From the NCBI GenBank assembly GCA_049999805.1, contig JBNGIO010005421.1:1-41318 (forward strand): a stretch of 41,318 nt of DNA. Reading direction: 5' to 3'. The translations under genes and the position numbers were made by a program. This DNA comes from Folioceros fuciformis. Taxonomy: Eukaryota. Positions 8,771-33,900 of the stretch are shown piece by piece (within the stretch, counting starts at the first letter, position 1; each line of letters starts with the position of its first letter). The notes beneath the pieces are model-generated. The model saw nothing but the letters and a program-made list of their open reading frames with translations. It was not told the origin of the DNA and did not search any database.

Positions 8771-9258
8771 CGGGCTTCAGGTTGAAGACTGTAGCTCTGA
8801 TGAGAGGGGCAAAGTCAGACTCAGTTTTGCTGGCATCGACTGGCGTATGGCTCTCAATTGCTGCCATGCTTTTGCTCGTTCTTTGTCTGTACGATTACAG
8901 CTGTGCATTTAGCACCTCCTTGAGCGAGGCTCATCAGAAACGCTGGGAGAAGAGGTCGCGCTATTTGCTTCACCGACAAGCTCCACTGGAGGAAACCTGG
9001 ACAAGTTCTCGGGGGTTGCAAGCAAAAGGCTTCACACTTGGCCATATTGATTCGTTGGCCGAGGGTGTGAGTGGGCCACCAGGTGAGTGTACAAAAATTT
9101 TGCCCATGCATGAGGTACCAAAATTTAGGGATGAGAGGGAGGTGAGAGCCTTGTAATACACCATTCGCATTTTTCCTGGACTCGTAGGACTCAGGTAGAT
9201 TAGGTGTGTAGCCAGTCAGCAATAATTATACGTACTGGCCTTCACGTGCGCAACTGTA

Positions 9259-12200
9259 TCAAATGTCACATACGATACCCACCTCAATAAGCCGGTCGGC
9301 TGGGATGCCAAGCGCGAATACACCGGAGCGGCAGTTTCTCCTGAGAGCTGCGTACGCTGTGTCCAATACGAACCGGCGCAGCCAGCTGGAACCGGGAGCT
9401 GCCTGTATTTCGGATCGGCCGACAACATGGACTATACCCCGCTCCCGCGCGGAGCGGAGGCAGCTCAGTTCCAAGCCGACGGGTCCTGTCCCCTGGTCCC
9501 CGCCCACCCCCGTGTCCACCTGAAGGAAACGGGTCCCCGAGCCCCGGCGGTGGGTGACCGGGTTTGGGCTTGGTTCCGGTTCTGGCGAAGGGAGTGGGCG
9601 GGGAACAGGAGGCGGTCCCGACAGCAGCAACACCTCGAGCCCCTGTATGACGAGGTCCTCAAGAGCCCTCCCCCGCACGTGCGTGTCAGTGTAGCCATAG
9701 CGCAGCACGCATTGATAGCAATTGCGGACGGGCAGGCGGCGCAGCAGCAGGCGCTCCCCCGGTAGCACGCTGGTGACAGGAACAGGCTTCACGCACACGA
9801 ACACCAAAACCTGGTGGATGGCCGGTAGGCTGCGCAGGAAGTGTGTGAAAGTGGGAGGGACTGAGCTCACCAGTTGGCTGTAGAAGAAGGCTATCCCGGG
9901 CAACGCCACCTGCGACTGTGCGGCACCCACATCTCCAGCCACCGCGTCCATGGCGGCCGTACGCGCACCGTCGTATTTTCGCTTGCTGTCTGACCCGTAG
10001 TGCCAGACGTACATTACAGCGAGCAGGACGCCGCCCAGGAGGAGCGGCACCCATCCCCCTCCTGGCACCTTCACCAGCGCCGAGCTCAGGTACACGGCCT
10101 CCCCGCATCCGAACACTGCCACGAAGAGAGCCGCGCAGAAGGGGTGCCACACCCACACAACCACCATCACCAGCGCCACCAGCAGGCTGGTGATGAGCAT
10201 CACCGACACCACCGCGATGCCTGCACCGACACAGCTGCCCCTATCACGTGACCACGCTGTCTCTCTCTCCTCACGTGCTCACGTGAGGCTGGGAGCCCCC
10301 CCTTCCCTCATCGCGTGACCCTGGGAGCCCCCCCCTCTTCTCTCATCGAGTGACCCCATCTCGTGATGACTGCCTATTTTATACACATGTGTGCTACAGT
10401 GCAGTGCAGTACATGTTTGCTCCCCTGCTCCGCGTGTTTGCAGCATGCTGGGTTGTCCGTCCGCATTTGCCCACAGATGTCGCCTGAGGGGGCGAGACGC
10501 ACATCGAGGAAGGAGGACGGCAAGGTGCGGTGCGCAGGGAGGGGGGGAGGACGAGAGCACGGGACCAGGCAGAAAGCACGTACCGTATGCGTGGCCCAGG
10601 GCGTTGGCGGAGCGGAAGCCCGCGACGACGGCGATGGAGAGCAGCATGAGCATGTAGTTCACCTCGGGAATGTAGATCTGGCCCGGCACGGTCTTGGATG
10701 TGTGGATGATTTTGACGCGGGGGAAGCAGCCCAGCGCCATGGTCTGCTTGATGACGGAGAAGGCGCCGGAGATCATGGCCTGGCTGGCCACGATGGTGGC
10801 CAGAGTGGCCATCACCAGAGTGGGCCAGTACATGGCCTTGGGCACGGCTTTGTAGAAGGCCGCCGCCACGTTCTCGGGGTGGATGCTCAGGTACGCGGCC
10901 TGTCCGAAGTAGGCCAGGATCAAGCTCGGGTATACTACACCTGTGAAGGCCATCTGCACACGAGCAGAGCAGCAGCATCGATGTTTAGGGTTTATGGGTT
11001 AGGGTTAGGGTTAGGGTTGCGGAGTTAGAGCAGAGCTCACCTGGATGGATGTCTTGGAGAAGTGGCCTAGGTCGGCGAACATGGCCTCCGTGCCTGTGAT
11101 GCACAGCACCACGCCGCCGAGCTCCGTCCACCCCTGCTTCTTCTTCTTGAGGAAGAATTTGATGGCGTGGTGCGGGCCTACGGCTCGGAAGATGCTGGGT
11201 TGGTACTTGGCGATGTTGTAGGTGCCCAGGGAGCCGATGAGGAGCAGCCAGGTGACGACGATGGGGGCGAAGAGGAAGCCTACTTTGTCTGTGCCCTTGC
11301 TTTGGAGCAGGAAGAGGGCCAGGAGGATGGCGCATGTTATGAGCACCACCGTGTCTGCATGGGGGGAGGAGAGGACGGGTGGTGTCACGTACATGAGTGA
11401 GTAGCTTGATCATCATTTCTGCATCGTCAGGAAGGAGGGCTTCGTGTTACAGGGGGGCAGGAGGTGGGCATACTCTTGCCCAGATGTGGAGCTTGCACTT
11501 GGATTCCTTCCACGGCGGAGAGAACTGCGCGCACAGCAACCACGCAGCCAGGCAGAGGAGTGGTGATTTGAGTGAGTCAGGTGGTTGCAGTACATGTCAA
11601 GCGTTTGGAGAGAGAGAGACACAGGGCTGCTGCATAATGTCACGCAATGTTTAATGGAAGCCAAGGGGGAACGGGGAACTCACCAGAGATGGCTGGAGTG
11701 AGAATGCCGTCTCCTACTACCATGGAGCTTCCCAGCATGACGAACAGTAGCAACGCTTTCTTCAACACTTTGCTCTTCTCCAGTAGTAATCTGACCTTGG
11801 GAGTTGCGCCTACGGAGCGCCTGCGGCTGTAGTTTGCCAGCTGCGTGTCGGAGGTGTGCTGCGAGGCGAGAAGGCTGCATCTGGCATGCCTGCAGAGCAA
11901 AGTATACAATGCAGCAGTTCCTCCTGTTAAAGCAGGAGCACGAACGAGGCTGCTATCAGCAGCCTGAAAGAGGAAGCCCGAAGGTGTTAGTTTTGGGGGT
12001 GGCGTCGAGCAAGATGCTAGGTCTGCAAGGGCAGGATAGAGTTCTCACCTTCGCCGTTGTCGTCGGCGTTTAGGACGATGAAGACGTACTTGAGCAGACC
12101 GATCAGCGTGAGAGTCCAGAAGATGAGTGACATGGCGCCCAGTACCTCCACCCTCTCAACGGCAGTGTCTGCGAATGTGGATGAGAAGACGTAAAGTGGG

Positions 12201-12426
12201 GACGTTCCCAAGTCTCCGTAGATTACTCCCATGCTCTGATAAGCAAGCAGCAGGACCCTGTATTTCGAAGCTTCAGTCTGCAAGACAAGGACTTGCACCG
12301 TGAGAGACACAGGGCTGTCTTGGTGGTTGCACCCGACGAAAACATTCTGTGGCAACCCCAGTCTCCAGTTGTTCTGCCACCTACCTCGCTGAGAGTGACT
12401 GTCTGTGCTACGCTCTCCAACTCCAT
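9259..12426 (-). CDS. HAK: KUP/HAK/KT potassium transporter (exons 12426-12385, 12277-12049, 11923-11684, 11524-11474, 11354-11041, 10953-10584, 10220-9259)
   Basis: [59 protein letters not shown], and C-terminal LIEVGI. The start codon is uncertain because the frame stays open upstream. Confidence 0.95.
10983..11018 (+). repeat. Short telomere-like tract (TTTAGGG, then TTAGGG x3) in a KUP intron
   Basis: GTTTAGGGTTTATGGGTTAGGGTTAGGGTTAGGGTT read directly. Confidence 0.85.
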
Positions 12427-13381
12427 TTCCGGAGGAATCTTTTGGAGCTCCGACGTCTCAGCACTGTTCAGTTTCGCACAGCAAAGTCAGACCCACCTTA
12501 ATGCAACCGAAAGACTTCATATGACAACAAGTTCACCAGGTATGTCCAGAGTTGAATCTCCACCTCCATGAAATACTCGACCTTCCCTTCTCCACCGACC
12601 CATTCTCCAGGCTGTCAATGTGCTCATCATCTTGTGTGTCAACTTGGTCCATGTCACCCCAACCAACCAGTTTCTGAACTCGGAAACTCAACTCTATGGG
12701 GGAGCTTCCGTGTGTCGCATCAAGCTATCGGCCATGGCACCTGATCTGTATGTACTCCAAGCGGCACCTCAGTGCAACCATCTCCACGAACAGTCTTGTC
12801 ATTTCCACCGCATCATCTTCCAGACACATCACAAAGAAGCCCCACGGGGTCGAAGAGGGAACGCCGCGCTGGTTGCAGTTCCACCCAAGTCCAGTTCTCT
12901 TGCACTCCAGCCTGCCACAACAAGCGAACTTTTCACCCCCATGCATCCTCCTTCCAGCCCAATTGCTTCCCCGGTTACAGATCCAGAGACGGGGGAGAGC
13001 CATTGTCTCAAACCCTAGAGCTGGGCACCGGGAGTTGGCATGAAGATGGGAATCGGACTGACCCAATCCGTCCAGAATCCAGCCAACCGCAAGACACCAG
13101 AACTGTTGGATCACAGCCAACTGTCAGGCGGTCTAGCCGGGTAAAGCCAGCCTCACTACGGCCGACACCAGCGGCGGTTATCCCTGTCCCCGGCCCCGGA
13201 ACCTGCAAGTACAGTAACCTGCCCGTCTCCTTGGGGGCCGCATCTCTGCTAGAAAATGTAAGAAGACTGGAAGTGTCAAGATAAAAGAAAGTAAGGTGTC
13301 GGTGTGTACTCAATTCTGTTTTTCGTAGAAGCTTCCGTGAAGCCGAAAGTGAGTTGGAGCTCGTGTTGAAGCTTTTTGGCG

Positions 13382-14260
13382 ATGGCGGGAGGGGTTGTTC
13401 TAGGCCCTGTGACGCTCGCCGCCGCCGCCTGCCCGGCGCCTTGCGTAAGGGAACGCACCCGGCCAGGCCGTTCGCGATGGCATTGCCGAGCGGCAGTGCC
13501 GTCAGAAGAGGGGGGAAACGACGCAATGACGGATGTAGGTCTGGACGATGTCTTCAGCTTGATTGCGCAAGCACAGGAGGCATTCCCTGATGGACGGCCG
13601 CCTGAGGAGCTGGTGGCGGCGGACTTGACAGCAACTTCCACGAAGCTGCGGCGGGCTTCCACTCCGGCCTCCCGTTGGTACAGCGTCTATGGCCGTTCCG
13701 TGCCTCCGTCGCAGGACGCGCGCTCTGTCTTCTACGGTCCTCGCAGGCCGAAATGGCCTGGCCCAATCCCAGCTTACCTGCGCGGGGAGTTTCCGGGAGA
13801 TTACGGCATGGATCCGCTCGGCCTGGCCCGAGACCCTGCCACATTCAAGCAGCTGAGAGGGAAGGAAGTCATGAACGGCCGCTGGGCCATGCTCGGGGTG
13901 GTAGGGTGCCTGTTGCCGGAGATTCTGCAGCCTGGTGACGGCGGGGTTTGGTTCATTGCTGCCAGGGAGCATTTTGCGAGTCATCCTGGTGTGCTGGAAG
14001 TGGGATTGATTTTGTTTCTGGTAGCTTCTGAGCTTGCGAGAGCCGTGGGGATTGAGGGCTTGAACGGGATTCATCCGGGTGGCAAGGCTTTCGATCCGTT
14101 AGGGTTCGGGATCGAGGATGAATCTAATGCAGAGCTTAAGACGAAGGAGATAGAGAATGGGAGACTAGCAATGTCCGCCATGGCTGGCCTGTTTGCACAG
14201 GCTCTTGTCACTGAAGTCGGGCCTATCCAAAACTTGATAGGAATTTTGCAGCGCAGTTAG
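13382..14260 (+). CDS. Divergent chlorophyll a/b-binding (LHC, Lhcb-like) protein, single exon
   Basis: Transit-peptide-like N-terminus; FYGPRRPKW, YLRGEFPGDYGMDPLGL, EVMNGRWAMLG, HPGGKAFDPLG, LKTKEIENGRLAM, Q...T..GPIQNL. Confidence 0.9.
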   Translation: MAGGVVLGPVTLAAAACPAPCVRERTRPGRSRWHCRAAVPSEEGGNDAMTDVGLDDVFSLIAQAQEAFPDGRPPEELVAADLTATSTKLRRASTPASRWYSVYGRSVPPSQDARSVFYGPRRPKWPGPIPAYLRGEFPGDYGMDPLGLARDPATFKQLRGKEVMNGRWAMLGVVGCLLPEILQPGDGGVWFIAAREHFASHPGVLEVGLILFLVASELARAVGIEGLNGIHPGGKAFDPLGFGIEDESNAELKTKEIENGRLAMSAMAGLFAQALVTEVGPIQNLIGILQRS

Positions 14261-14569: not shown

Positions 14570-15700
14570 AGAGGCACACAAACATCACAGAATTAGGTGC
14601 AGCCATCTCTGCTCACATAGCACTGAACAATCGCAGGGTTTCCTGGCCTATGCCCTGGTGGAAGAACCCTGCTATCATGACATCGCAGTTCACGTTACCA
14701 ATTCCTTCCCACAAAGTCCATGGAGGATTCGCTGGGCAACTTCCAAGCTCCCGCTCTTTGCATACATGTCCACCAAGCCCTACAGACAAACAAATCTGGC
14801 TCAACGCCACTGGCCACACATCTGCATGCACCTGTTGCCCAGTTTCCAAAGTTTAATCCCCTTGCACAAGCTCGAACGGCCGCCACAAACACATGACCAT
14901 CTGGCTTTACGTTGAGCCCCAGCATCCGATGATACAGCTGTATGCCTGCTTCTCTTCTCCATACTTCACATACGCAGAAATGGTGGAAGACTACATGAAG
15001 CCATCAGGTACAGCTACCTACCATTGCAAACACATTAAATTTGTGATGAATACACTCGCAGGATGTGATTGCACAGGGAAGTATTCGACTAGCACCCGAT
15101 ACTCACCTTGAAAGCATGGACTCTGCGACCTAAAACAATATCCCTCTTCATCACAAATTTTCCTCAACACCATGAAAGACAGATCTCGAAATATAACGCC
15201 CTCCTCCCTATTTGCACCATATCACCCAAAGCCTTAGCAGCTTCTATCACACGGCCCCGCTCACAAAGCCTGCTTACAGTTTCAGCAGGCACGCCAATTG
15301 CATACCCTGCAGACCTAATCCTGCGAGCATGGGTCGCCATATTCCAGCTTCTGGCCACTGCCCCGAACTGGCTTTCCTGCAAAGGTGCTGCAACTCGTAG
15401 CTTCCGCGTTTGCCTTCAGCTGGTTCCTGGACATCATAGTCACGAGAGAGGAAGAAATTAAGTCAGTATCTGTTAATCCACCAGGTTCTTCGGTCCAGGG
15501 ATAGATAAAGCCGTTCCCTCGGAGGATCCAGCTGTACTTGAGCGCCTTGTGCGTGACTCGAGACGTTTTCAGTCCGAGGGATTTGCTCTCCGGTGCGGTG
15601 GGGTCTTGTTTTGCATCCCAGCAACCCGACTGCTGCAGGGATCTCAAGCCAAAGCAGCTGCAGCTAGCATTGGATCCCCAGTGCCTTACATATGCTGCAG
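14570..15700 (-). pseudogene. PLS-type PPR pseudogene with degenerate N-terminal OSB-like PDF motifs
   Basis: Frameshifted fragments DRRTWWINR, AETVSRLCERGRVIEAAKAL, NHILRVY, VKPDGHVFVAAVRAC, VHAD, LVDMYAK. Paralogous to 23945-24980. Confidence 0.75.
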
Positions 15701-15869
15701 TGAACTGGTGAAATTCAAGATGCGTCTTCCGCACTGGTTAGCGACGTGAGCAGATGAAATATTGCAGTTCCCACGGCCGATTGTCTTAAGCTGCACAAGG
15801 CATGCTTTGCTGTTTGGCTGGTGTACAGCCTGCGTAGCGGGAGGCATGCAGGACTGTCCTGTAAAGGTC

Positions 15870-16440
15870 TTGGATTGAGTGGTCAGCAGGGACAAAAACT
15901 TGGTTAAAATCCGACCTCTGTCTAGCTGTCCTCCATCTCTGCCTTTTTCTATACTGACTATCATTGCAAGACCTTGCCGGTGAGTTGCTTTCACCCTTTC
16001 GTTCGTTCCTTCCCTGACTTCAGTAGACGCGGTCGCTGTGAATGACTTTGGACATGATGGTTCCTTCCCTGAGGTTCTCCACACACAGTACTGAGGCAAA
16101 AGTTTTCTAAGCTGCTGCTTCCACCTTTCCTTCCCTCCCCACTTGTCACCTGAGGACAGAACATGACTGTTGCTACACTGCACCTTGCAGGAGAGATGCC
16201 TTCCTTCACATGGAAGGTGGGTCTATGGACCGTAGGATCCCACCACCTGAGTTCTGCTCAGCTCAGCTTGGCTCCCAGCCCATTCATCGTCATCCCTTCC
16301 TTTGGACCTTTTTCCTCTGAAATAGACTGCCCGTCTGGGTTGCTTCAAATCCCACATTGTACGTACCTCGAAAATATACATCATGCCTGCCAAAGCGAAA
16401 AAAGTCAGATTGCGTATTCGAATCAGAAACAGTCTGTATG
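15870..16440 (-). pseudogene. Decayed paralog of the ROCO-caspase gene (COR end to caspase N-terminus); may extend to ~17230
   Basis: NERVKATHRQGLAMIVSIEKGRDGGQLDRGRI matches NERAKAGHRRGLAMIVSMEDHRHGGQVDRGRL of the intact gene. Weaker matches: IRNLTFFALAGM vs ARNLIRFNYDGM, and GGILRS vs EGIIRT. Confidence 0.8.
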
Positions 16441-18041
16441 ACGTTTCCTTCTGAATTGTGTGTGCATCAAAAGGTCTGCCTCCCGTTGTACTCAGGTGAG
16501 CTCAGCTATCGTAAACATAAAGGCGAGCACGCTGAAGGGTGTAGAGGGCGATTCGTCGGCAGAGCGTAGGGAAGGAGTACACAAACTACCGTCCACTACC
16601 CATACAAACTATGCAATTCTCCCATTCACACAAACTATACAAACTATGCAACTCTCCCATTCACACAAGATATGCAATTATCCTATTCAGTGTGTGTGCC
16701 AAACAAGGAGCAAACGAGGAGAGAAAAAACAGTTTCACCCTCCACATTGTCGGAAGACAAACCCTCAATTCGTGGACCCCGTCCGCCGAATGCTCCAGGT
16801 AGAAAGGGCCCTGTTCTGAATAAGCTCTAGTCCTCTCCACTTTCAGCCTGTTAGGAACCTTTCGACCTGAGATTGTCTGCTGGTCATGGTAGGGCGTAGA
16901 AGAAATTCCTTCTGCACTTCCTCATTTGAGCATGATGTCATTGGCATTGCCCCGGTCATGAACTTATGTTAGCCGTCAGTGGAGGGGTCAGGTATCCGAT
17001 TGGAGCGGTGGCAGTGCAAGACAGGCCAGGTCGAACGGGCCGTTCTGTTGCAAGGCTGGCATCCATGTTCCACATCTCCGCCCTACAAGAGCTCCAGTCA
17101 CAACACAACACAGCACTGTGCCTTTGGCGGGCCGGTACATCAGTCAGAAGGAGAGACAAGTTGGCTTGCTGACTGGCCAAGTTGTCTAACTTCTGCAGCC
17201 AGCCATCAGGGATGAGAATCTGCATTTGTGCGGCAACGCCTTACACATTACTATTCAGCGAGCCGAAATGAGTCGCGCAGCCCGGTCAATGAAACATCTG
17301 CCTACCAACACCGAGATACGCCACGTTCACAATTCCCCTTGACATCCAGCGCGATCGAGAACGTTGTTAGCCGCTGCTGAGCGGCACACGAACATTACAC
17401 ACCGTACATGTACACATGTCGGTCAGTGTTTAGTGGAGAGAACGGGCTTTATTGATAGAGGAAGAGAGAGAAGGGCGTGGTCCAGACCAGGATAATAGAC
17501 GGCGACAGCACCAAACCCATAACGTGCTACCAACCCTAATTCAGTTATGAAAAACCGCTGCGTGCTGCCTGGTATCACTGTGACACGAAGGCACAAGCCT
17601 CGACGCCAGTTCAGACAGGGACATGCTGTCTCCGCTTTGCTTTTGACTGGTCGGGAATGGAAGATGAAGCATACATCCTCACGCCAGTGTACAGAACAAT
17701 GTAAACACCAGAAGTTCAGACCCCAAACTTGGACTTGCTTCTTGAAACCAACACCTCCCAGGTGTGTACAAACACAGCACCATCTTCCCTCCCTACACAT
17801 GGCCTCCACGACCCATCATCTGATCATCCACACCATGACAAGACCCTGTGAGAGAACGTTCTTGCCGAACAGGCAGAGAACGGGAGGAGACGAGAGAAGG
17901 TCGGATCAGAAGCAGTTTGACACAACAACAAACAGGCAGTACAGTCTGTAGCTAGAGTGACACTTGATACCTCACACTTGATGGAAGGCAATACACGCTC
18001 CTCACGCTAGCCAACCAGGCATGCGTAGAGAATGGAGTGAT

Positions 18042-21000
18042 TTAAGACCAGTATAGCTTTCCAGTGAGTGAGCTGACGAACTGGGGACACTGCACGTTCT
18101 GCATTTCGGTGACGTCGCGAGTCACTCTTGTTAGAATGCTCATCACATCTTCGGTACGAGAGTGGTCAATGATGGCTCTCACGAAAGCTACGATGAAGTT
18201 TGTGCCTTCCTCCACATTTCTGAAGGATAAATCTCCAGGACTAGTAGAGAAGACGGTGAGAATATCTTTCGCCTGATACAAGGGTCGAGTTCTCTTGTTG
18301 AGACCCTGCCTTCCCTCAACCTCTGACCCCTTGCCTTTGCTGGTAGTGGCAAGGTCGGCGGGGCCCGACCCCTGTGCTTTCATGCTTTTGACAAGACGGC
18401 CAGTTCCTCGACAAGCATTTATGACAACCACCTTAGGCTTGTGCGCCAAATACTTGCATTCAGCGATGGGCTTCAAAATATCTTCTTCAACATTAAGCTT
18501 CTCCGCATTGTCTGGTTCACCTGAGAAAACATACTGCCTTCCGTCTTCATCAGTCCCACCATGGGCGTTCACGCAAAACAGAAAGCAGTCGTCTTCTGCT
18601 AGGTGCGGGACCCTGAGAACGGCTTTCAACCTTGATTTCCCTTCCTTAGGACCGTTCACAACGATATCTATATCAAAATTCAACATCTGGAAGAGAGCTT
18701 CAAGTCGCCCTCTGTCTACCTGTCCTCCATGTCTGTGGTCTTCCATGCTGACAATCATTGCAAGCCCTCTCCGGTGACCTGCTTTCGCCCTTTCGTTTGG
18801 ATATGAATGTTCCTTCCCTAACTTCAGTATGGGCGGTACCTGTGGCTGACTTGTTCCAGCTGAAGGGCCACTCGTTGCGTCGAGGGACGGACGTGGCCCA
18901 CACTGCTGCAAAGCAGACTGCACCTCTTCGCTACTTAACAGATCCCTGGCTTTCTCGTACACAAGGGATAGACCAGCTTCAGGCATTTCTGGCCAGCACC
19001 ATTGATAATCGGAGCAATCCGAGCCGGAGGAAGTCTGCTCTGCATGGCTTTTGTGATGATGTAGAAAGCAATTAATCAAATGCTGGTTGAGAACCGATTG
19101 ACTGTGTCGGTGAATACAGAGTGTGAGCTTCTCCACACACTCAGTCCTGATGATCCCTTCTACTAGTTCAACTCCAGGACTACCTTCAGGAGAGGCACAA
19201 AATGCTCTCAGTTCCGCAACAATACTCTGCTGGAGAAACTGGATCGTTTCGTCTTTGCTCTTGAGTGACCTCATCAAAATGTCCACACGATCCCCAATGT
19301 CCCCGGTCTCGTCCCGAATATCCCCATTGCTCTCCAAAAACACGTCCATACCATCGTAGTTAAATCTGATCAAGTTACGCGCAATGCTATACTGATGAGA
19401 CTGCATACCGCAGAGCGCATCGAACAAGATCTGTCGTAACTTGACCTGCAATGCACAAGCAATGGCCATGTCATAAAACGCAAGAGAGGTTGTATGACTA
19501 ACAAAAGAGACAGCTCAGACGGCAACGTACCTGGAATCTTGGAAAGCAGCCTGGACCGAGAAATGTCTTTGTTTCATCTCGGCATTGTAGCCGCCTGCCT
19601 ACGTAATTGTACTTGGACGCCGCACCACTTTTCCAGTCCAACTGTCGTTTCCCTTGAAGAGCTTTACCTTCGGCGTCATCCAAGGTGAAGGGAACGAAAA
19701 ATCCAGGCCTTGGATTCGCATCATCTCGATAGCACAAGTTTAGTCTCATCATCAATGATACCAAATCTTCAACACGAATCCTGTCGGCCACGTGGGTGTC
19801 CTTGAGGATCCGGGCCAAGGTGTCGTTGAGGAGGTCTTCAGCAACAAATCCACGGTCTCGCGATCTCCCCAAGGAAGGCTGTCCGGCTAGGCGCTCAATG
19901 AGATGGCCCAGGAACGAATGACTGATCCAGTGTGGATTTACCACCACAGCATCTGCATCTGCATCTGCATCTTGGAACCAGATGACCCGGCCTGCATTGT
20001 GCAGATAGGCAAGAATTGCTTGAAGGCGTTGCTCATCATCTTCTTCAACAACCTTTTTGCATCTCTCCTTGGTCACCAGAGGCTGACCTGGATTTTGAGA
20101 TACCCAGTGAGTCAAAGCAGCACTCAATCGATTGCACGCCTTCGGAACCCAAAACAGAGGAAGCGCAAACAGCTCTCGAAAAGATTGGAATAGCTCCTCC
20201 AGCAAAGGCTGCGCAGTCTGTTTAGATCGAGCATCCATGAAGAAAGGCGCTGTCCTGATAAGAAGTACCTCCTTGAAAGTCTTGGCCAAGTCTTCCACGA
20301 CTGGTTGCAGCAGACCAACCAGTAATTTGGCGTCCAGATCCTCCATCCGATCCTTATGAGTGACAACCACAAACACCCGAGGCAAACAGGAACCCACGTT
20401 GCGAGAATTGGAGTGGATGAATCTTAGCCAAAACTTGAAGCCGTTTCTGAACTTGTCCAGCAGCATTTCATCGGACGGAAGGGGTTCACCAGGCTTGTGG
20501 GCATCAAGTGGGTTATATGTGAACAGGAAGACACATGTCTGGTTGAAGCTGGGGAACAAGTAGTCTTGCAGAGCTCGGTAGTGAGCTTGTCCAGCCAGAT
20601 CCCAAATGGTAACTTCCATCTCGTCGTCGTTGCGCAGCACCTCGATTTCTATGCCTTCCGTTCTGGGGACAGTTCCCACCACCTGGTTGGATGATGCGGC
20701 TCCTATGAGTGAAACATCACCGAACCAGGAACCATTCCAAGCTAGAGACATTTGTTCCCACAATTGGACTTGGTTGGCGGATGCGGCGGCTCCTGTAACT
20801 GAAACATCGCCGAACCAGGAACCATTCCAAGCTAGAGACAGTTGTTCCCACAATTGGACTCGCTTGGCTGATGCGGCTCCTGTACAATGTGATGTGTGTG
20901 GTTGCGATGCGCGCCATGCGGTGATCATGGTGTTTCGGAGAGTGGTCTTCCCTGCGTAAGGTGCACCGCACAGGAAAAGGCGGCCGACCCTGGGCTTCAC

Positions 21001-22338
21001 AGCCTCTTGCCCCTCCAAAAGCAAAGGCCAGTAGGTCCTGTGACTAACATTGCGTGCCAACGTCGCGTTGATGATGGCCTGCTTTCCCTCTTCCTCCCAG
21101 TTTGTGAAGTCTACGTCGATCTTCTGTAAAGTGGTGTTGACCTGGAGGGACTGCATCAACTCTCTGAACAGCTCATCGTCGAGTCCCCAGCAAGACTGAA
21201 AGCTGAGCTTATTCAAAGATGTATTTTTCTCCAAAGACTGCACCAACGCTTCCATGAAAGAGGGCTCGTTTATCTCGAAGAAACTCAGGATGCGTAATGA
21301 TTTGCATTTCAGAAACGACATCGAAAATTCACTTAACAACTCGTCACCGTAATAGTCGTACAACGTAAGTGTGGAGAGGGTGGAGTTGTGGCGCCAGGCG
21401 TCCAGGCCGAACTTGACAACAAAACAGCTGATCGTAAGGTCCGTGATGCAATCGTTGGTGCGCAACATTCCGGCCAGCGCGTCGGCCAGGCCTGGCTCCT
21501 CTTTGTTCCCGATACGCAACGTCAGCTTGGTGACCCCAGATATGGGGGCATCAGCCTCAGCATCAGCACGGGTGAAAGCCAGTTTCAACACAGTGCTCAT
21601 GGGCCCCAGGCTGCCCTGTACGGAACCCCTAACTGCATCACGTTCATCCCGATTGCCATCATCCAAGTAAAGCTCCCGGAGCGAGGCACACAGCGGCAAT
21701 GCCTTTGCAATACACTGGGCTCCCGCCTCATCCACGCGGATGCCCCGCAGATCCAGGACATTGAGACGGGGAGCGGTGGCCAGCATGCGAGCCATGTGCT
21801 GTGCCCCTTCACCATCTCCCACACTGTTCCGGCTTATGTCCAAATACTCCAGGACAGAATCCTGGTTGAAGCCATCGACCAGGGCACCAAGTCCAGCGGC
21901 ATCAAGCCTGATCACGCTTGCCTTCAGCTGTCGCAAGCTGCGACTAGAAGCAATAAGCTGGCCCAGGGCCTTGCAACCCGCCAGCCTTCCAAAACCTTCG
22001 CAATCATCCAGATCAAGAGCTTCAAGGGAAGGGTTGGATGCCAGGCCCTCCAACAGAACCGCGCATTCATCCTCCCGACCGATGCCGGTTTCCCACCGTT
22101 CAGATATCTTCAGGCGGCCGCGGAGACTGCGGCACTGGCCAATAGCTGTCAATACCCGCTTGCGCACTCGCCAGTGCCTGCCATCCGTGCTCGTTGAAGC
22201 TCCCTTTCTGAAGAAATCGCCGTACTCCTTGTTGTGCAATTCGGGGAGTTTGGTCAAGGCGGGCCCTTCCAGATCTTCCAGCAGCTGTTGCAGCTTTTCC
22301 GGCAACTCGCGCCAGTCATAGTCCTCCTGCTCCGCCAT
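18042..22338 (-). CDS. LRR-ROC-COR (TORNADO1-like ROCO) protein fused to a C-terminal caspase-type peptidase C14 domain; 1403 aa; exons 22338-19531 and 19445-18042
   Basis: RI-like LRRs; P-loop GAPYAGKTT, RTEGIEI, IWDLAGQ, VVTHKD; COR (LAYLHNAGRVIWF, VVVNPHW, FFVP, GRRLQC, FPRFQ|VKL). An 85-nt phase-0 GT-AG intron joins the two ORFs. Protease motifs DCFLFCVNAHGG and KPKVVVINACRG, and small-subunit motifs FSTSPGDLSFRN, GTNFI, QCPQFVSSL. Confidence 0.92.
20690..20885 (-). repeat. In-frame 90-nt (30-aa) tandem duplication inside the ROC domain
   Basis: VQLWEQLSLAWNGSWFGDVS and VQLWEQMSLAWNGSWFGDVS; GAAACATC(A/G)CCGAACCAGGA occurs at 20711 and 20801. Confidence 0.93.
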
Positions 22339-22419
22339 GCTGTGCTAAGCTGCGCTTCCCAATGCAAGCAAATATGATGAATGGAAAGTATGTATCATCC
22401 GTTTTGTAGCAGGGGCAGC

Positions 22420-22720
22420 AACCTCACAGCACACACTCGAGGATTGCGACACCAGACAAGGACAGGCTATGGGACAGGCAACTCACAAGCACACACGCGC
22501 GGAGGGTTGGGACACCAGACAAGGATAGGCCAGCAGGCTGCCTCCCAACAACACACTCGAGAAGGGTTGACAGACCACACAAGGATAGGCTAGGGGACGG
22601 TGCCATCAATCTCACAGGACACACACTTGAGGAAGATCCCGATTGGAACACCAGACACGGATAGGCTAGGGGACGACCACCTCACAGCACACACACTGGT
22701 TAAGGATAGGGACACCCTAC
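22420..22720. repeat. Degenerate ~60-80 bp tandem repeats just upstream of the ROCO-caspase ATG
   Basis: Recurrent CTCACAGCACACACT...GACACCAGACAAGGATAGGC, about 4-5 copies. Confidence 0.75.
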
Positions 22721-23394
22721 AAGGTCTCTTCAATGTCTGAGACGAGACGGTTATGTGGTAGCCGGCAATAGAGCTGCCAGGTCTCACTCACTCTCCCTCC
22801 ACTCATCAGCGCGTCAGCGTGCGCGTGCTTGGCTTTTCCCCTTCCCCACGTCTCTCTCACTGTGACCAGTGGATATTCCCCCTCCATACACACTTATGCG
22901 CGCTCAGTATTTTATCAAAGCACACCTACCTAAGTGTGGCGGACTCACTGGGCCGGCCAGCATCGTGGACAAGACACGACACGACACCAAAGGCTAAACT
23001 TTTCTCAGCTGCTGCTTCCAACCCTCCTTCCAATTCTCTCGCCCCTACCCCTACTTGTTACAACACGACATGCACCAAAGATGCCTTCCTTTACGTGGAA
23101 GGCAGGTACAGTACAGCACGTTTGTGGTAGGACCCAGCACCTGAGCTCCGCTCAGCAAGGTTCCTAGTGCACAAGCGCGCACGTTCTTCCCTCCCTACGC
23201 ATAGCCTCCATGGGCCATCATCTGTTCATCCCCATCGGGATGCTGTGAGAGGTGTCTCTGGCCAAACAGGAAAGAATGCCAGGCAAGGGAGAAGTGACCA
23301 GACTTATCAGAGGCAGTATTTAATAGACCAACAACATGTAGTTCAAGAGCATACCTGACTCTTGATTGACGGCATTGCAGGCCCTGGCCACATG

Positions 23395-23920
23395 CTACTC
23401 ACTATAGCCAGGCATGACAGGAGTCGGGGGTGGTCGAGACCAGTACAGCGTTTTGGTAAGTGTGCTGCGCAACTCAGGACACTGATATTTCTTCTCATAG
23501 TCCCCGTCTTTGGTTTTGTCTTGGACCTCCTTGTCCGTCGCCTTGCCAATGACGCTTGTCTGAATGCTCAAGACATCTTCTGTTTCAGAGCCCTTCACTA
23601 TGGCGTCCATCAAAGCTATGATGAAGTTTGTGCCCTCCTCGACATCTCTCAAAGATGCATCTCCAGGACTGGTGGAGAAAACTGTGAGGCAGTCTTTCAC
23701 ACAAGACAATAGTCGCACTCTGTTTCTGACAACTTGGCTTCCCTGAACGTCTGACCCCTCGGCTTTGCTGGTAATGGCAAGGTCGGCGGGGCCCGACCCC
23801 TTTGCTTGGCTTCCCTCAACCTGACACCTCGGCTTTGCTGGTAGTGGCAGGGTTGGCAGTGCTTGACTCCTACGCTTTCATGCTTTTGACAAGACGCCCA
23901 GTGCCTCGACAAGCATTGGG
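23395..23920 (-). pseudogene. Caspase-domain paralog fragment (NACRG, linker, small subunit)
   Basis: NACRGTGRLVKSMKA* followed by a partly duplicated linker and KDCLTVFSTSPGDASLRDVEEGTNFII...QCPELRSTLTKTLYWS. The His-bearing half is absent. Confidence 0.88.
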
Positions 23921-23944
23921 TTGGGTTGGGTCCTTCAAGTCGGC

Positions 23945-24980
23945 CTTTATACTGTACCAAGGTGCCACACTTTGCATACATGTCCACCAAGCAATTACAA
24001 ACTAACAAATCAGGCTCAAGCCCACTGGCCAAGATATCAGCATGCACCTGCTTCCCCTTGCACAGGCCTGAAATGCTGCCACAAACAGATGACCATCTGG
24101 CTTCACACTGGACCTGCGCATCCGTTGATATAGCTGCACGGCCTGCTTTGCTTTGTCTTGTCCATGTCTAACATGTGCAGAGATTATGGAAGACCAGATG
24201 AAGGCATTTGGTTCAGCAACCATGGTGAACACATCCATCGCGTCTTGCAACCTGCCAAACTAAGCATACATTCGCAGAATGTGATTGCTCAGGAACGTGT
24301 CCGACTGATACCCCTTGTCCATCGTCAAACCATGCACCGGACCGACGACCCAGAACAAGAGTCTTCTTCAACACACATTACTTAAGTACAGTAAAAAACT
24401 GAGACTTGGGTACACAGGAGTCTGTCTGCACCAGAACTTCCAGAGCCTCAGCAGCCTCAGTGAGCAGGCCCTCATGATATAGCTTGCTCACAGTTTCAGC
24501 CATCACAATCCTGCAGGCCTGAGATTGTCCCGACCGTCGGGCAAGCTAGGTTTGGGCTCAGAGACCTCACGACCCATATCCACATCCCAAGCAGCAAGCT
24601 TCGACTTCACCCAGGCTGGCTTGTAGAGGTGGTGCAGCCAGATCCCCTCATGGGATTCTCTGTACTTGAAGTCAGGCAAGCGCTTACTTTTCTTGGCATG
24701 CCTGTTATCCCACCACAGTGTTGGGTCCCGAAAGAACTGTCCCCACAATAGCTCCTGCTGACGAACCTGGCGGGCAGCTCCGCCTTTATCCACCCATCCT
24801 GTTCGATGAGCTGCCTGCCCGGCTGAAGGCCCCCATCTTTTGGCTGGTTCGGGTGGCTAAGCTCGCCTCCTTGAAGTCAATTGCGAGGGAGCCCTTCCAA
24901 AAGTGCCTGCTGATTTCGGCACAGCCATGGGGCCGCGTTACGCTTACGATTCCGAGAGACATTGATCCGTGGTTACGCAA
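23945..24980 (-). pseudogene. PPR pseudogene with N-terminal OSB-type PDF motif
   Basis: LLWGQFFRDPTLWWDNRHAKKSKRLPDFKYRESHEGIWL...PAWV, then PLS repeats (DAMDVF...PNAFIWSSIISAH, VKPDGHLFVAAFQAC, LVDMYAKCG), with stops and frameshifts. Confidence 0.85.
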
Positions 24981-26322
24981 TACGACGGGCAGATAACGCA
25001 GAGCAGCAAATGGAAGAACCTACACCTGGAGTACCTACGTGACTCAAATTAATTCTCGGAGCTGAAAGGCATGCAGTCTTGGTTCACCAGTTAATTCTGG
25101 GAATCTGATGTCAGCCTTGTAGGTGGGATAGGCAACCTATGCATCTGTAGGTACGCACTGGTTGCGTAAACGGGCGGGGCGACGCTTTCATCCAATCTCG
25201 TTGAGTTCAATTCAACCGAGTTTGCGGGCGACACATGCTAGTTTCTTCTGGGTAATTTACAACGGGTGGCCATACACTGTTTTTACACGGAAGGGAATGC
25301 AAAGCATATCATCCGTATGCATGATGACCCTCTTTCTCCAGACATGGAAACAAGAACAGCCGCCGGACCATCTCCCGCTCACGCTGATTACAAAGTCGAC
25401 TTCCTGCCCGCATCCAGGAAACCAGGCTCCGCTCACTACATATGTCCTTACCAGTCGCATTGTTGCTGCACATCCACTTGTTGGCCCGGTACACATTCCA
25501 GGCCGCACTTCAGTTCAAATTCAGAAACAGTACAAAAGCAGAGAAAGCATGCTTCCTACTGTCCCCAATTCGTCACCCCTCCCTGCATTCCGCACATGCG
25601 CACACGCCTCAAATTGCGCACTTCATGCTGCGTTGCTGCTGGTTAGCAGGATCACCGGGGTCTGGCAAGCAAGCAACCCATCAGATACGACAGAAAAGGT
25701 TGCCTCCCAGGATCACAATGAAGATCCATCATAGAATACCTGGAGGGGGCTGAAGCTCAATACACACATGAGGCAACCCTGCAAGGGAGTTTAAGGTTGG
25801 GTCAGGAATGGCGCCATACATCTTGCAGGCTGAAACCTGGCCTTCGATGGAACATGGTCTCCGACTTCTCCGTTTTCAGCTTTATCTGCGCCTGCTTCAT
25901 ACAATGAAAACTAGGGATGCCGGAAGATCCCACCTCCTGGCCCTCAAACGCGACGTCTCATGATCATGTGCTTGCAGCTCTTCATGGGAGGAATCCCATG
26001 GAACTACGCAGGGGATAGAGAGTGCCATTTGAGGAAATACAGCAGTGTACCCGAACGTTGTTAACCAGACATGGCTACACTACAGCCTCCTAGTTGTGAA
26101 ATGCTGGCCAAACATATGAGGCCTTGAAGGCTGCAAACATGTGACTTGAGAGAAACTCTCGGATTCTCAAGGGGCACCCGTGAAAATATATACATTGACT
26201 GTTCAGACGAATATGTGCCTTATAATTGTATCCTTATGGAATCACTACAAATGACGTCATTATCAATCGGATTATTATGGCGAAACAGAACGGGACGTTC
26301 AAAGGCCACTTCCCACATGGAA

Positions 26323-33299: not shown

Positions 33300-33900
33300 A
33301 GGGTACTAACCTAACAACCTAAAGCACCAAGAGACCTGGGAACCTTTTCAAAAGCCAAACCTCGAAACCTAAAACCAGAAGACCAACCTCGAAACCTAAA
33401 ACACCAAAAGACCAACCTCGAAACCTAAAGCACCAATGACCAATCTGGCAACCTAAAACACCAAGAGACCAACCTAGCAAAATCAAGAGACTAACCTAGC
33501 NNNNNNNNNNTAAAACACCAAGAGACCAACCTAGCAAAATCAAGAGACTAACCTAGCAAATTAAAACACCAAGAGACCAACCTGGAAACTCAAAACACCA
33601 AGAGACCAACCTGGAAACCCAAAACACCAAGAGACCAGCCTAGCAACCCTAGCTACACCAAGAGATCAACCTAATAACCCTAGCTACAGCAATAGACCAA
33701 CCTAGCAACCTGAAACAAAAAGAGACCAACCTAGCAACCTCAAACGCCAAGACAACAAGAAACCAACCTAGCAACCTTAAACACCAAGAGACCAACCTAG
33801 CAGCCTCAAACACCAAGAGACCACCCTAGGACACAAAGAAACTATCCTAACAACTTAAAACGCCAAGAGACCACCCTAGGACACAAAGAGGCCAACCTTA
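33300..33900. repeat. ~29-30 bp satellite (AAAACACCAAGAGACCAACCTAGCAACCT), with a 10-N gap at 33501-33510
   Basis: Read directly; the true array length is unknown because of the gap. Confidence 0.92.

What the first reader, a model, noticed from the sequence alone, without database searches (positions are those of the whole stretch)
18042..22338. ROCO GTPase-caspase fusion: candidate one-gene sensor/switch/executioner in a land plant
Seen in the sequence: two ORFs joined by an 85-nt phase-0 intron give an uninterrupted 1403-aa LRR-ROC-COR-protease protein. Established: plant TORNADO1-type ROCO proteins have LRR-ROC-COR with no protease; ROC-COR modules form nucleotide-regulated dimers; initiator caspases are activated by induced proximity. 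Inference: LRR sensing and GTP-dependent COR dimerisation could activate the tethered protease, like an NLR/inflammasome built on a GTPase instead of an NB-ARC. I know of no description of this architecture in plants.
Basis: partly seen in the sequence, partly recalled or inferred. Interest (0 to 1): 0.95.

Follow-up and report, generated by a model that had tools for sequence, protein, structure and literature searches.

The report
Plant ROCO GTPase fused to caspase
A plant (probably bryophyte) gene joins a leucine-rich-repeat sensor and a ROCO GTPase switch to a protease that looks like an animal caspase, a kind of enzyme that plants are generally said to lack.

Summary
On the minus strand, exon 1 (22338-19531) and exon 2 (19445-18045, stop 18042-18044) are joined by an 85-nt GT..AG phase-0 intron and give 1403 aa. 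Domains: RNI-type LRR, Roc, COR-A, COR-B and Peptidase_C14. COR-B and the protease lie in one ORF, so the fusion does not depend on the intron. The junction aligns without a gap to hornwort and liverwort ROCO proteins. One public-run contig skips exactly these 85 bases, but its short side is 29 letters and the run is only guessed to be RNA.

The protease is caspase-type, not a metacaspase. VIA-align Z is 28.7 to caspase-3 against 19.3 to Arabidopsis metacaspase 4. The His/Cys dyad and both S1 arginines align to caspase-8.

Neighbouring genes are plant genes. COR-B+caspase relatives occur in Nothoceros hornwort transcripts and two unnamed clusters.

The architecture is not new to biology. LRR-Roc-COR-caspase proteins are described in bacteria (PMC8195603), and a sea anemone record has Roc-COR-caspase. 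Nine literature searches found no description in plants.

The proposed function, a GTPase-gated proximity-activated protease, is inference.

The parts
19531..22338 (-). Exon 1, 936 codons from the ATG at 22338: LRR region, Roc, COR-A and the first residues of COR-B
19446..19530 (-). Intron, 85 nt, GT..AG, phase 0
   Evidence: Sequence read directly. A contig joint in run X1 skips 85 bases here, and a loose end at 19432 fits the same junction. The junction aligns gap-free to relatives.
18042..19445 (-). Exon 2, 467 codons plus the stop at 18042-18044: COR-B, a linker and the caspase-type protease
21019..22161 (-). RNI-type (ribonuclease-inhibitor-like) leucine-rich repeats, about residues 60-440
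   Evidence: Pfam LRR_6 is weak and below cut-off. PDB sequence hits are to a designed LRR protein, E 9.9e-10, and to ribonuclease inhibitor and NOD-type LRRs.
20239..20991 (-). Roc G-domain, about residues 450-700: P-loop GAPYAGKT at 458, DLAGQ at 580, THKD at 660
20689..20877 (-). In-frame tandem duplication, period 90 nt, 2.1 copies; gives two 30-aa copies (25 of 30 identical) between the P-loop helix and switch I
   Evidence: It lies in the low-confidence segment, residues 43-121 of the Roc-COR-A model.
19690..20082 (-). COR-A, residues 753-883
   Evidence: Pfam PF16095, 38.3 bits. Foldseek top 30 matches are all ROCO proteins.
18921..19445 (-). COR-B, exon-2 residues 1-175
   Evidence: VIA-align Z 10.5, rmsd 2.6, 128 residues aligned to the C. 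tepidum Roco COR domain (3dpu_B 807-940). The 47%-identical Nothoceros relative P0007 hits Pfam COR-B at E 2.4e-4, below cut-off.
18051..18770 (-). Caspase-type Peptidase_C14 domain, exon-2 residues 226-465. Catalytic His1231 is at codon 18561-18563 and Cys1281 at codon 18411-18413. A low-confidence intersubunit linker covers exon-2 residues 351-384.
23437..23917 (-). Flanking partial copy of the caspase C-terminal part, from the Cys motif to the end. It is 52-69% identical and lies in two frames. Probably a pseudogene fragment.
15719..16003 (-). Flanking partial copy of the start of the caspase domain, 64-67% identical over 36-39 aa; the His and Cys parts were not found

Best explanation
This is a real two-exon nuclear gene of a land plant, most likely a bryophyte and perhaps a hornwort. 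It encodes a 1403-aa ROCO protein with N-terminal RNI-type LRRs, a Roc GTPase, COR-A and COR-B, a roughly 40-residue flexible linker, and a C-terminal protease of the caspase type (C14A-like, not a metacaspase).

Shown here:
- The gene model.
- The five modules and their order.
- Intact GTPase motifs.
- An intact His/Cys dyad.
- Two conserved arginines of a caspase-like basic S1 pocket.

Inferred:
- The protease is a zymogen that becomes active when two copies pair through the canonical caspase beta6/alpha5 interface.
- Pairing is gated by the nucleotide-dependent monomer-dimer cycle of the Roc-COR module. COR-B, the dimerising part in bacterial Roco, sits directly in front of the protease.
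- The LRRs act as a sensing or autoinhibitory module.
- The predicted specificity is for acidic P1 residues.
- By analogy with bacterial LRR-Roc-COR-effector proteins and with animal initiator caspases, the likeliest role is regulated proteolysis in immunity or cell death.

My odds: gene and architecture about 0.9; dimerisation-gated protease about 0.5; immune or cell-death role about 0.35.
For: Gene model:
- ORFs, splice sites and the 1403-aa join.
- The spliced motif FPRFQ|VKLRQ aligns without a gap to 6 of 6 relatives tested: Nothoceros P0007 (47% identity), P0069, and Marchantia and Riccia P0019, P0028, P0022 and P0082.
- In run X1, one contig (depth 212) joins 19446 to 19532, skipping 85 bases. 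This equals the intron, because 19446 and 19531 are both C. A second contig ending at 19432 carries 13 loose letters that read across the same junction.

Domains:
- Pfam Roc, COR-A and Peptidase_C14 all score above their cut-offs.
- For the Roc-COR-A model (pLDDT 71.5), the top 30 Foldseek matches are all ROCO proteins: M. barkeri Roco2 at E 3.8e-12, LRRK1, LRRK2 and C. tepidum Roco.
- Exon-2 residues 1-175 match the C. tepidum COR domain at Z 10.5.

Protease type:
- By sequence against the PDB, the best hit is Dronc at E 1.1e-13, followed by caspase-8, -3, -9, -1 and CED-3. No metacaspase is among the 60 rows shown of 165 matches.
- All Foldseek rows shown (ranks 1-50) are caspases, all but two human (zebrafish caspase-3 at rank 15, a coral caspase at rank 20).
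- VIA-align Z is 28.7, 28.6 and 28.2 for caspase-3, -9 and -8. It is 22.1 for MALT1, 19.3 and 18.8 for Arabidopsis metacaspases 4 and 9, and 15.8 for yeast Yca1.
- ESM Atlas features are nearest to caspase-1, -14 and -3 clusters, score 0.95.
- In the alignment to human caspase-8, the Arg of R-x-G...D, the His (AHG), the Cys (NACRG, with Asn in place of Gln) and the Arg of S-F-R-N all align.

Dimer:
- Homodimer prediction of exon 2 scored 0.35 against a best control of 0.00. That mark was reached by 21 of 30 proteins solved as pairs and by 0 of 23 solved as single chains.
- The runs agree in at least 23% of contacts, and partner pLDDT is at least 52.
- The interface covers residues 435-463 with a 457:457 contact, which is the caspase beta6/alpha5 interface. 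The pass may come from the model's memory of solved caspase dimers.

Plant origin and conservation:
- Neighbouring genes are a KUP potassium transporter, a chlorophyll a/b-binding protein, GT43, copia gag and a kinase.
- Of 150 representatives listed, 3 true cases combine COR-B and caspase. These are P0005, P0006 and P0014 (with its cluster member P0155); P0014 and P0155 are Nothoceros aenigmaticus transcripts.

Precedent:
- Bacterial LRR-AP-GTPase-COR proteins with caspase among their C-terminal effectors (PMC8195603, passages).
- A nucleotide-dependent monomer-dimer cycle in C. tepidum Roco (PMC5714945, abstract).
Against: - No functional data exist.
- The transcript evidence is thin. The joint's shorter side is 29 letters, under the tool's own 31-letter rule for bridging. 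Run X1 is only guessed to be RNA. If it is DNA, the joined form would be an intron-less copy.
- A 2 x 30-aa in-frame duplication sits between the P-loop and switch I and is modelled with low confidence. It might impair the GTPase.
- The S1 Gln is replaced by Asn.
- No COR-B to COR-B contact was predicted with confidence.
- One relative with the same layout, P0005, lacks the catalytic Cys in the alignment, so not all family members need be active.
- The gene is flanked by broken caspase fragments, which suggests a locus in flux.
- In C. tepidum Roco, GTP gives monomers. If pairing activates the protease, the active state would be GDP-bound or empty, which is unusual for a switch.
- No relative closer than 48% identity was found. 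This means conservation of the full-length architecture in an orthologue is not shown.
Confidence: 0.55

Rival explanations
1. Same gene and same architecture, but the protease is a limited-processing or signalling enzyme in development, trafficking or the cytoskeleton, as ROCO proteins such as LRRK2 and TORNADO1 are. It would not be an immune or cell-death executioner.
For: - Eukaryotic ROCO proteins with known roles act in trafficking or patterning (recalled; TORNADO1 is only cited in PMC11378527).
- Caspases have non-death roles (title and abstract listing of PMC11615176).
Against: - The closest described architecture, bacterial LRR-Roc-COR-effector, is interpreted as a conflict system.
- Relatives form many divergent paralogues in liverworts. 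There are 28 Roc/COR representatives at 50% clustering or less, and of the 15 whose source I looked up, 14 carry Marchantia or Riccia names and one is unnamed. Flanking fragments lie at this locus. This pattern is more typical of fast-evolving receptor families than of housekeeping genes.
Confidence: 0.25
2. A lineage-specific, recently shuffled gene that is decaying or has no selected function. The open frame would be recent, and the fusion would be a by-product of local duplication and rearrangement.
For: - Broken caspase fragments lie on both sides.
- There is a 90-nt duplication inside the G-domain.
- Relative P0005 lacks the Cys.
- No orthologue above 48% identity was found.
Against: - The frame is intact over 1403 codons, with every catalytic and nucleotide-binding motif kept.
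- The COR-B+caspase layout recurs in 3 clusters that are only 30-34% identical to this one, one of them from another genus. This argues that the fusion is old and maintained.
- There is probable transcript evidence.
Confidence: 0.12
3. An artefact: two separate genes read as one, or a chimeric or contaminant contig.
For: No single public contig spans the whole gene. No genome is held for this window, so assembly context could not be checked.
Against: - COR-B and the protease lie in one uninterrupted ORF.
- The junction lies inside a motif conserved in ROCO relatives and aligns gap-free.
- Nothoceros transcripts carry COR-B+caspase.
- Flanking genes are plant genes.
- Public-run contigs match flanking stretches with 0 differences: 15305-15944, 17201-17598 and 24228-24477.
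Confidence: 0.03

Closest known systems
Bacterial LRR-AP-GTPase(Roc)-COR proteins with variable C-terminal effectors including caspase (Kaur et al. 2021, eLife, PMC8195603; passages read)
   Same: The order of modules is the same: N-terminal LRRs, Roc, COR and a C-terminal effector. Caspase is named among the effectors. The proteins are interpreted as an NTP-switch-controlled effector.
   Different: This is a plant nuclear gene with a spliceosomal intron. Its protease is closest to animal caspases. A pattern scan of one genome for each of 185,579 prokaryote species found only 1 relative, on a 1141-bp MAG contig at 25% identity. I did not see or align any of the bacterial proteins.
Exaiptasia diaphana (sea anemone) XP_020902336.1 / KXJ13106.1 (P0160, P0144)
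   Same: Roc, COR-A and a C-terminal Peptidase_C14 in one protein.
   Different: The N-terminus is HEPN_DZIP3 plus a P-loop ATPase, not LRRs. The match to this protein is weak: Roc at 1e-3 and caspase at 2e-15. It is known only as an automatic database record, and I found no paper on it.
Liverwort and hornwort ROCO paralogues (Marchantia polymorpha Mp1g27080 and Mp5g17320, M. paleacea, Riccia spp., Nothoceros transcripts) and, by recall, Arabidopsis TORNADO1
   Same: RNI-type LRR, Roc, COR-A and COR-B, colinear with this protein from about residue 10 to about 1117. E-values reach 3e-98 (P0019) and 8e-65 (P0007).
   Different: The liverwort proteins carry a different C-terminal region of about 300 aa, with no Pfam hit and no caspase. 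TORNADO1 itself was not retrieved or compared.
Animal initiator caspases (Dronc, caspase-8, caspase-9, CED-3)
   Same: The fold is shared: Z 24-29, rmsd 1.9-2.9 over 192-211 residues. The His/Cys dyad, both S1 arginines and the KPK-x-x-x-I-x-A-C-x-G motif are shared. There is a long intersubunit linker and a predicted beta6 dimer interface.
   Different: There is no CARD or DED prodomain. A whole ROCO module takes its place in cis. Gln283 is Asn. Identity is 22-28%.
Plant metacaspases (Arabidopsis MC4, MC9)
   Same: Clan CD caspase-hemoglobinase fold with a His/Cys dyad.
   Different: The structural match is weaker, Z 19.3 and 18.8 at 9-11% identity. None is among the 60 PDB sequence rows shown. 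By recall, metacaspases have an acidic S1 pocket and Arg/Lys specificity, whereas this protein keeps the two basic S1 arginines of caspases.
Marchantia alpha/beta-hydrolase-caspase proteins (Mp6g00860, Mp6g00900, MARPO_0108s0037; P0018, P0042)
   Same: Caspase-type C14 domain in a bryophyte, 33% identical, E 3e-24.
   Different: The N-terminal module is an alpha/beta hydrolase, not a ROCO.
Brown-algal ROCO candidate immune receptors (PMC11378527; passages read)
   Same: An expanded eukaryotic ROCO family, some members with a C-terminal peptidase domain, proposed as immune receptors.
   Different: The peptidase there is IPR009003 (trypsin-like by recall), not C14. The lineage is different. No sequence comparison was made.

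Membership tests
ROCO proteins (Roc-COR tandem) | Ras-like Roc G-domain with P-loop, DxxGQ and an N/TKxD-type motif | tested here: met
   Pfam Roc 29.6 bits against a cut-off of 27. GAPYAGKT at 458, DLAGQ at 580, THKD at 660. The model's top 30 Foldseek matches are ROCO proteins.
ROCO proteins (Roc-COR tandem) | COR-A directly after Roc | tested here: met
   Pfam COR-A 38.3 bits against 35.3, residues 753-883; Foldseek.
ROCO proteins (Roc-COR tandem) | COR-B (dimerisation part) after COR-A | tested here: met
   VIA-align Z 10.5, rmsd 2.6, 128 residues aligned to C. tepidum Roco COR 807-940. Pfam COR-B did not hit the query itself. A PDB profile search with the COR-B alignment found nothing relevant.
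ROCO proteins (Roc-COR tandem) | GTP binding and hydrolysis; nucleotide-dependent monomer-dimer cycle | not testable with these tools
   Needs protein biochemistry.
Caspases (MEROPS C14A) | Caspase fold with p20-like and p10-like parts separated by a linker | tested here: met
   Model pLDDT 81.8, with a low-confidence linker at 351-384. Z 28.7 to caspase-3. All 50 Foldseek ranks shown are caspases.
Caspases (MEROPS C14A) | Catalytic His in an xHG motif and Cys in a QACxG-type motif | tested here: met
   AHG (His1231) and NACRG (Cys1281) align to SHG and QACQG of caspase-8. Gln is replaced by Asn.
Caspases (MEROPS C14A) | Basic S1 pocket (Arg179 and Arg341 in caspase-1 numbering, recalled) | tested here: met
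   The Arg of R-H-G-G-Q-V-D and the Arg of S-F-R-N align to the corresponding arginines of caspase-8 and Dronc.
Caspases (MEROPS C14A) | Closer to caspases than to paracaspases and metacaspases | tested here: met
   Z 28.7, 28.6 and 28.2 (caspases) against 22.1 (MALT1) and 19.3, 18.8 and 15.8 (metacaspases). PDB sequence ranking. ESM Atlas. No rooted phylogeny was made.
Caspases (MEROPS C14A) | Homodimer through the beta6 strand | tested here: inconclusive
   The prediction supports pairing, 0.35 against a best control of 0.00, at residues 435-463. It may reflect the model's memory of solved caspase dimers.
Caspases (MEROPS C14A) | Cleavage after Asp | not testable with these tools
   Needs an enzyme assay.
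Metacaspases (C14B) | Best sequence and structural match to metacaspases; acidic S1 pocket (recalled) | tested here: not met
   Metacaspases rank below caspases and MALT1. The S1 arginines of caspases are kept.
TORNADO1-type plant ROCO | LRR-Roc-COR without a catalytic C-terminal effector; orthology to TRN1 | tested here: not met
   A protease is present. Orthology to TRN1 was not tested, because no TRN1 sequence was retrieved. All named ROCO relatives are from liverworts or a hornwort.
Bacterial LRR-AP-GTPase-COR-effector conflict proteins | N-terminal LRR, Roc, COR and a C-terminal effector domain in one polypeptide | tested here: met
   the description is in PMC8195603.
Bacterial LRR-AP-GTPase-COR-effector conflict proteins | Sequence kinship with the bacterial members; several paralogues with different effectors in one genome | not tested
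   No bacterial member was retrieved, and the window's genome is not held. Liverwort relatives have a different C-terminal region.

The most novel reading that the evidence does not exclude
Bryophytes keep true, acid-specific caspases. Here one is wired in cis to an LRR-ROCO GTPase, giving a single-chain sensor, switch and protease that works in plant immunity or cell death.

This would overturn the statement that plants lack caspases. [quoted passage not shown]
Probability: 0.3. Interest if true: 0.9.

Novelty: new variant of a known kind. Interest (0 to 1): 0.72.

Why it matters
Recent papers state that plants lack caspases and have only metacaspases:
- the abstract of PMC12521494
- the abstract of PMC10896300
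- the discussion passage of PMC10565124, which says caspases are absent in plants and fungi

This gene, its hornwort relatives and the Marchantia hydrolase-caspase proteins show caspase-type domains, with the caspase S1 arginines, in land-plant genomes.

The cis-fusion to a ROCO GTPase gives a simple, testable system for two open questions. One is how Roc-COR nucleotide state controls an attached enzyme, which is the LRRK2 problem. The other is whether proximity-induced caspase activation exists outside animals.

It also adds a non-NB-ARC candidate to the list of plant intracellular receptor-like proteins.

Tried and rejected
- **Own genome:** The genome search 'own' returned that no genome is held for this window. 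Paralogue counts and assembly context could therefore not be checked.
- **The search for homologous proteins, all 3 uses:** Exon 1 gave only 4 LRR-only hits. The caspase region with 'longer' gave none. Exon 2 with 'near' gave none. The word index misses relatives at 30-48% identity, so these blanks say nothing.
- **RNA runs:** No RNA holder is listed. The one holder, X1, is 'RNA?' by guess. X2 and X3 hold next to nothing.
- **COR-B profile against PDB sequences:** No relevant hit.
- **ESM Atlas on the C-terminal 314 residues of the Marchantia ROCO P0028:** No usable hit.
- **Prokaryote genome pattern scan:** 47 stretches matched the pattern, and 1 encoded a relative.
- **Metagenome scan:** 234 relatives were found and the best 80 were kept, at 23-35% identity. 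None of the 80 loci with a hit carries a match to the ROCO part. They are ordinary distant caspases and gave no insight into origin.
- **The search of earlier findings:** Nothing by place, by sequence or by words.
- **Hidden intron in Roc:** I considered that the 83-residue insertion in Roc might be an unspliced intron. I set this aside because it is an in-frame 90-nt tandem duplication with an open frame. No transcript data settle it.
- **P0086:** This shark caspase-8-like protein was counted by my script as 'COR-B+caspase'. I treat that as a spurious extension of the alignment.
- **Not seen:** Supplements of the papers were not available. The supplementary tables of PMC8195603 and PMC12513842 may list related architectures or families that I could not see.

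Full report
**1. The observation**

The minus strand holds two long frames, 19498..22344 (948 aa stop to stop) and 18042..19514 (490 aa). Read on the minus strand, the first frame reaches ...TTCCAG at 19531. It is followed by GTACGT, and the sequence ...TTGCAG ends at 19446. Removing 19530..19446 (85 nt, GT..AG) joins codon to codon in phase 0. A script that joined 22338..19531 to 19445..18042 gave 1403 codons and a stop.

**2. The modules**

Pfam finds the following:
- Roc: 29.6 bits, cut-off 27, on exon 1.
- COR-A: 38.3 bits, cut-off 35.3, on exon 1.
- LRR_6: weak and below cut-off, on exon 1.
- Peptidase_C14: E 1e-27, on exon 2.

The N-terminal 440 residues match ribonuclease-inhibitor-type LRR proteins in the PDB by sequence, with a best E of 9.9e-10.

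The G-domain motifs are intact: GAPYAGKT at 458, DLAGQ at 580 and THKD at 660.

An AlphaFold model of residues 440-936 was built on 15 bryophyte relatives (mean pLDDT 71.5, pTM 0.72). Its top 30 Foldseek matches are only ROCO proteins: M. barkeri Roco2, LRRK1, LRRK2 and C. tepidum Roco.

Its one long low-confidence stretch is protein residues 482-560. This stretch contains an in-frame tandem duplication of 90 nt at 20689-20877. The duplication gives two 30-aa copies, 25 of 30 residues identical, between the P-loop helix and switch I.

A model of exon 2 (mean pLDDT 81.8) has two confident parts, joined by a disordered linker at residues 191-210:
- Residues 1-175 match the COR domain of C. tepidum Roco (3dpu_B 807-940; Z 10.5, rmsd 2.6, 128 residues aligned). 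This part is COR-B.
- Residues 208-467 are a caspase fold.

COR-B and the protease therefore lie in a single ORF. The intron falls inside COR. The fusion of a ROCO module to the protease does not depend on the splice.

**3. The splice**

Two kinds of evidence support it.

First, the spliced sequence FPRFQ|VKLRQ falls in a motif conserved in ROCO relatives. It aligns without a gap in 6 of 6 relatives examined: Nothoceros P0007 at 47% identity over 155 columns, P0069, Marchantia P0019 and P0028, M. paleacea P0082 and Riccia P0022.

Second, public-run data agree. Among contigs of run X1 laid on 15000-25000, one contig of depth 212 joins 19446 to 19532, skipping 85 bases. Because 19446 and 19531 are both C, this is the same event as removal of 19446..19530. 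A second contig ending at 19432 carries 13 loose letters that read through the end of exon 2 into the end of exon 1.

There are caveats. The joint's shorter side is 29 letters, under the tool's 31-letter rule. X1 is only guessed to be RNA. If it is DNA, the joined form would be an intron-less copy. Another joint in the same run, 23221 to 23355, has CT..AC ends, which is GT..AG on the minus strand. That fits RNA.

**4. The kind of protease**

- By sequence, the best PDB matches are Dronc (E 1.1e-13), caspase-8, caspase-3, caspase-9, caspase-1 and CED-3. No metacaspase is among the 60 rows shown of 165 matches.
- By Foldseek, all rows shown (ranks 1-50) are caspases, mostly human.
- An independent all-against-representatives structural search gives a clear gradient:

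| Match | Z |
|---|---|
| caspase-3 | 28.7 |
| caspase-9 | 28.6 |
| caspase-8 | 28.2 |
| Dronc | 24.4 |
| MALT1 paracaspase | 22.1 |
| Arabidopsis metacaspase 4 | 19.3 |
| Arabidopsis metacaspase 9 | 18.8 |
| legumain | 17.8 |
| yeast Yca1 | 15.8 |

- Protein-language-model features are nearest to caspase-1, -14 and -3 clusters, score 0.95.
- In the HMMER alignment to human caspase-8, four positions align. These are the Arg of the R-x-G...D motif, the catalytic His (AHG, His1231), the catalytic Cys (NACRG, Cys1281, with Asn where caspases have Gln) and the Arg of S-F-R-N.

That these two arginines line the Asp-binding S1 pocket of caspases is recalled knowledge. On that basis I predict acidic P1 specificity, which is the opposite of metacaspases.

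**5. Organism and relatives**

Other ORFs in the window encode:
- a KUP/HAK potassium transporter
- a chlorophyll a/b-binding protein
- a GT43 glycosyltransferase
- copia gag
- a protein kinase

This is plant nuclear DNA.

A full HMMER scan of 1.84 billion representatives with exon 2 gave 1050 hits at E 0.001 or better. None was above 48% identity.

I re-scored the 150 listed hits against the whole protein:

| What the hit matches | Number |
|---|---|
| Roc/COR-A plus COR-B | 28 |
| COR-B only | 13 |
| Caspase only | 104 |
| COR-B plus caspase | 4 |
| Roc plus caspase | 1 |

- Of the 4 COR-B plus caspase hits, the shark caspase-8-like P0086 is a spurious extension. The true cases are P0005, P0006 and P0014.
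- P0014 and its cluster member P0155 are transcripts of the hornwort Nothoceros aenigmaticus. P0005 and P0006 are unnamed.
- In the alignment, P0006 and P0155 keep the His and Cys motifs. P0005 lacks the Cys.
- All named ROCO-part relatives are from the liverworts Marchantia and Riccia or from Nothoceros. The liverwort proteins have a different C-terminal region of about 300 aa, with no Pfam hit.
- Marchantia also has caspase-type domains fused to an alpha/beta hydrolase: P0018 (Mp6g00860 and Mp6g00900) and P0042.
- The single Roc plus caspase hit is a sea-anemone protein. Its longer cluster member reads HEPN-ATPase-Roc-COR-A-caspase.

Because the closest named relatives are hornwort transcripts, I infer that the window is from a bryophyte, perhaps a hornwort. 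This is inference, not a result.

**6. The origin of the protease domain is open**

A pattern scan of one genome for each of 185,579 prokaryote species found one relative, on a 1141-bp MAG contig at 25% identity. A metagenome scan found 234 relatives. The best 80 are 23-35% identical, and none has a ROCO part. Both scans rest on one peptide pattern, so they do not exclude bacterial relatives.

**7. Likely mechanism**

The shown facts are the module order, the intact motifs and a flexible linker of about 40 residues between COR-B and the protease.

For bacterial Roco, the abstract of PMC5714945 states that the protein is dimeric when nucleotide-free or GDP-bound and monomeric with GTP. By recall, initiator caspases are activated by induced dimerisation.

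A homodimer prediction for exon 2 passed the tool's mark:
- Score 0.35 against a best control of 0.00.
- The mark was reached by 21 of 30 proteins solved as pairs and 0 of 23 solved as single chains.
- The runs share at least 23% of contacts, and partner pLDDT is at least 52.

The confident contacts are residues 435-463, with 457 against 457. This is the canonical caspase beta6/alpha5 interface. Because caspase dimers are solved, this shows likeness rather than binding. No confident COR-B contact appeared.

My model is therefore that the Roc-COR cycle sets whether two protease domains can pair, and the LRRs sense a ligand or hold the protein shut.

The two Asp residues in the intersubunit linker, at 1300 and 1330, are possible self-cleavage sites. 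This is speculation.

**8. Literature**

Nine searches found no paper describing a ROCO-caspase, or any caspase-type protease, in a land plant.

What I read:
- PMC8195603 (passages): bacterial LRR-AP-GTPase-COR proteins whose C-terminal position holds at least 24 different domains, including caspase.
- PMC7159879 (passages): AP-GTPases in bacterial conflict systems.
- PMC11378527 (passages): brown-algal ROCOs, some with a C-terminal peptidase, as candidate immune receptors.
- PMC10565124 (passage): caspases 'absent in plants, fungi'.
- PMC12521494 and PMC10896300 (abstracts in search listings): plants lack caspases.
- PMC12513842 (term search of the main text): no mention of caspase or Roc.
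- PMC4715348 (term search): no mention of Roc or GTPase among coral caspases.

Supplements were not available, and subscription journals are not covered by the library.

**9. Verdict**

As an architecture it is a new variant of a known kind. It has been computationally described in bacteria, and it is present but undiscussed in a cnidarian record. It has apparently not been described in plants, where its caspase-type protease contradicts a common textbook statement. Function is untested.

Noticed in passing
window 23437-23917 (-), overlapping ORF 23395-23877 and a PPR-like ORF 23697-24167: A partial copy of the caspase C-terminal part, running from the Cys motif to the end. It is 52-69% identical to the main gene and split over two frames. 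It lies next to a PPR-like reading frame that has no Pfam hit. A contig joint at 23221 to 23355 has GT..AG ends on the minus strand.
   Followed up: partly
window 15719-16003 (-): A fragment resembling the first 36-95 residues of the caspase domain. The His and Cys parts were not found. Together with the fragment upstream, it suggests local duplication and decay around the gene.
   Followed up: partly
window 20689-20877: A 90-nt in-frame tandem duplication (2.1 copies, 89% matches) inside the Roc domain, between the P-loop and switch I. The 15 bryophyte ROCO relatives aligned have no such insertion at this place.
   Followed up: partly
P0018, P0162-P0167, P0042 (Marchantia polymorpha Mp6g00860 and Mp6g00900; M. 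paleacea): Liverwort proteins that join an alpha/beta hydrolase (SERAC1-like by the source's name) to a caspase-type C14 domain. They are named automatically 'Caspase family p20 domain-containing protein'. I found no paper on them.
   Followed up: partly
P0160 / P0144 (Exaiptasia diaphana): A sea-anemone protein with HEPN_DZIP3, a P-loop ATPase, Roc, COR-A and a caspase in one chain. This is an animal ROCO-caspase known only as a database record.
   Followed up: partly
P0019, P0028, P0057, P0068 and other liverwort ROCO proteins, C-terminal ~300 aa: A conserved C-terminal region after COR-B, with conserved Cys and His positions in the alignment consensus. It has no Pfam or Atlas match, so it is an unknown effector-position domain.
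   Followed up: partly
window 15000-25000, run X1: 1057 contigs of one small public run lie on this 10-kb stretch: 257 at 99% or more, 307 at 95-99% and 493 at 90-95% likeness. This hints at many related copies in that organism, but the depth figures cannot be used as copy number.
   Followed up: no
window 9000-14000: G+C rises to 0.57-0.62 over the KUP transporter and chlorophyll a/b-binding genes, against about 0.48-0.52 elsewhere. It falls to 0.32 at 40001-41000.
   Followed up: no
window 2066-5496: Copia-type retrotransposon remains: gag and Pol beta-barrel on the plus strand, and an integrase- or chromodomain-like ORF on the minus strand. Runs of N lie at 6237-6246 and 33501-33510.
   Followed up: no
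P0005: An unnamed relative with the same COR-B+caspase layout. It keeps the His motif but lacks the catalytic Cys in the alignment, so it may be a pseudo-protease member of the family.
   Followed up: no
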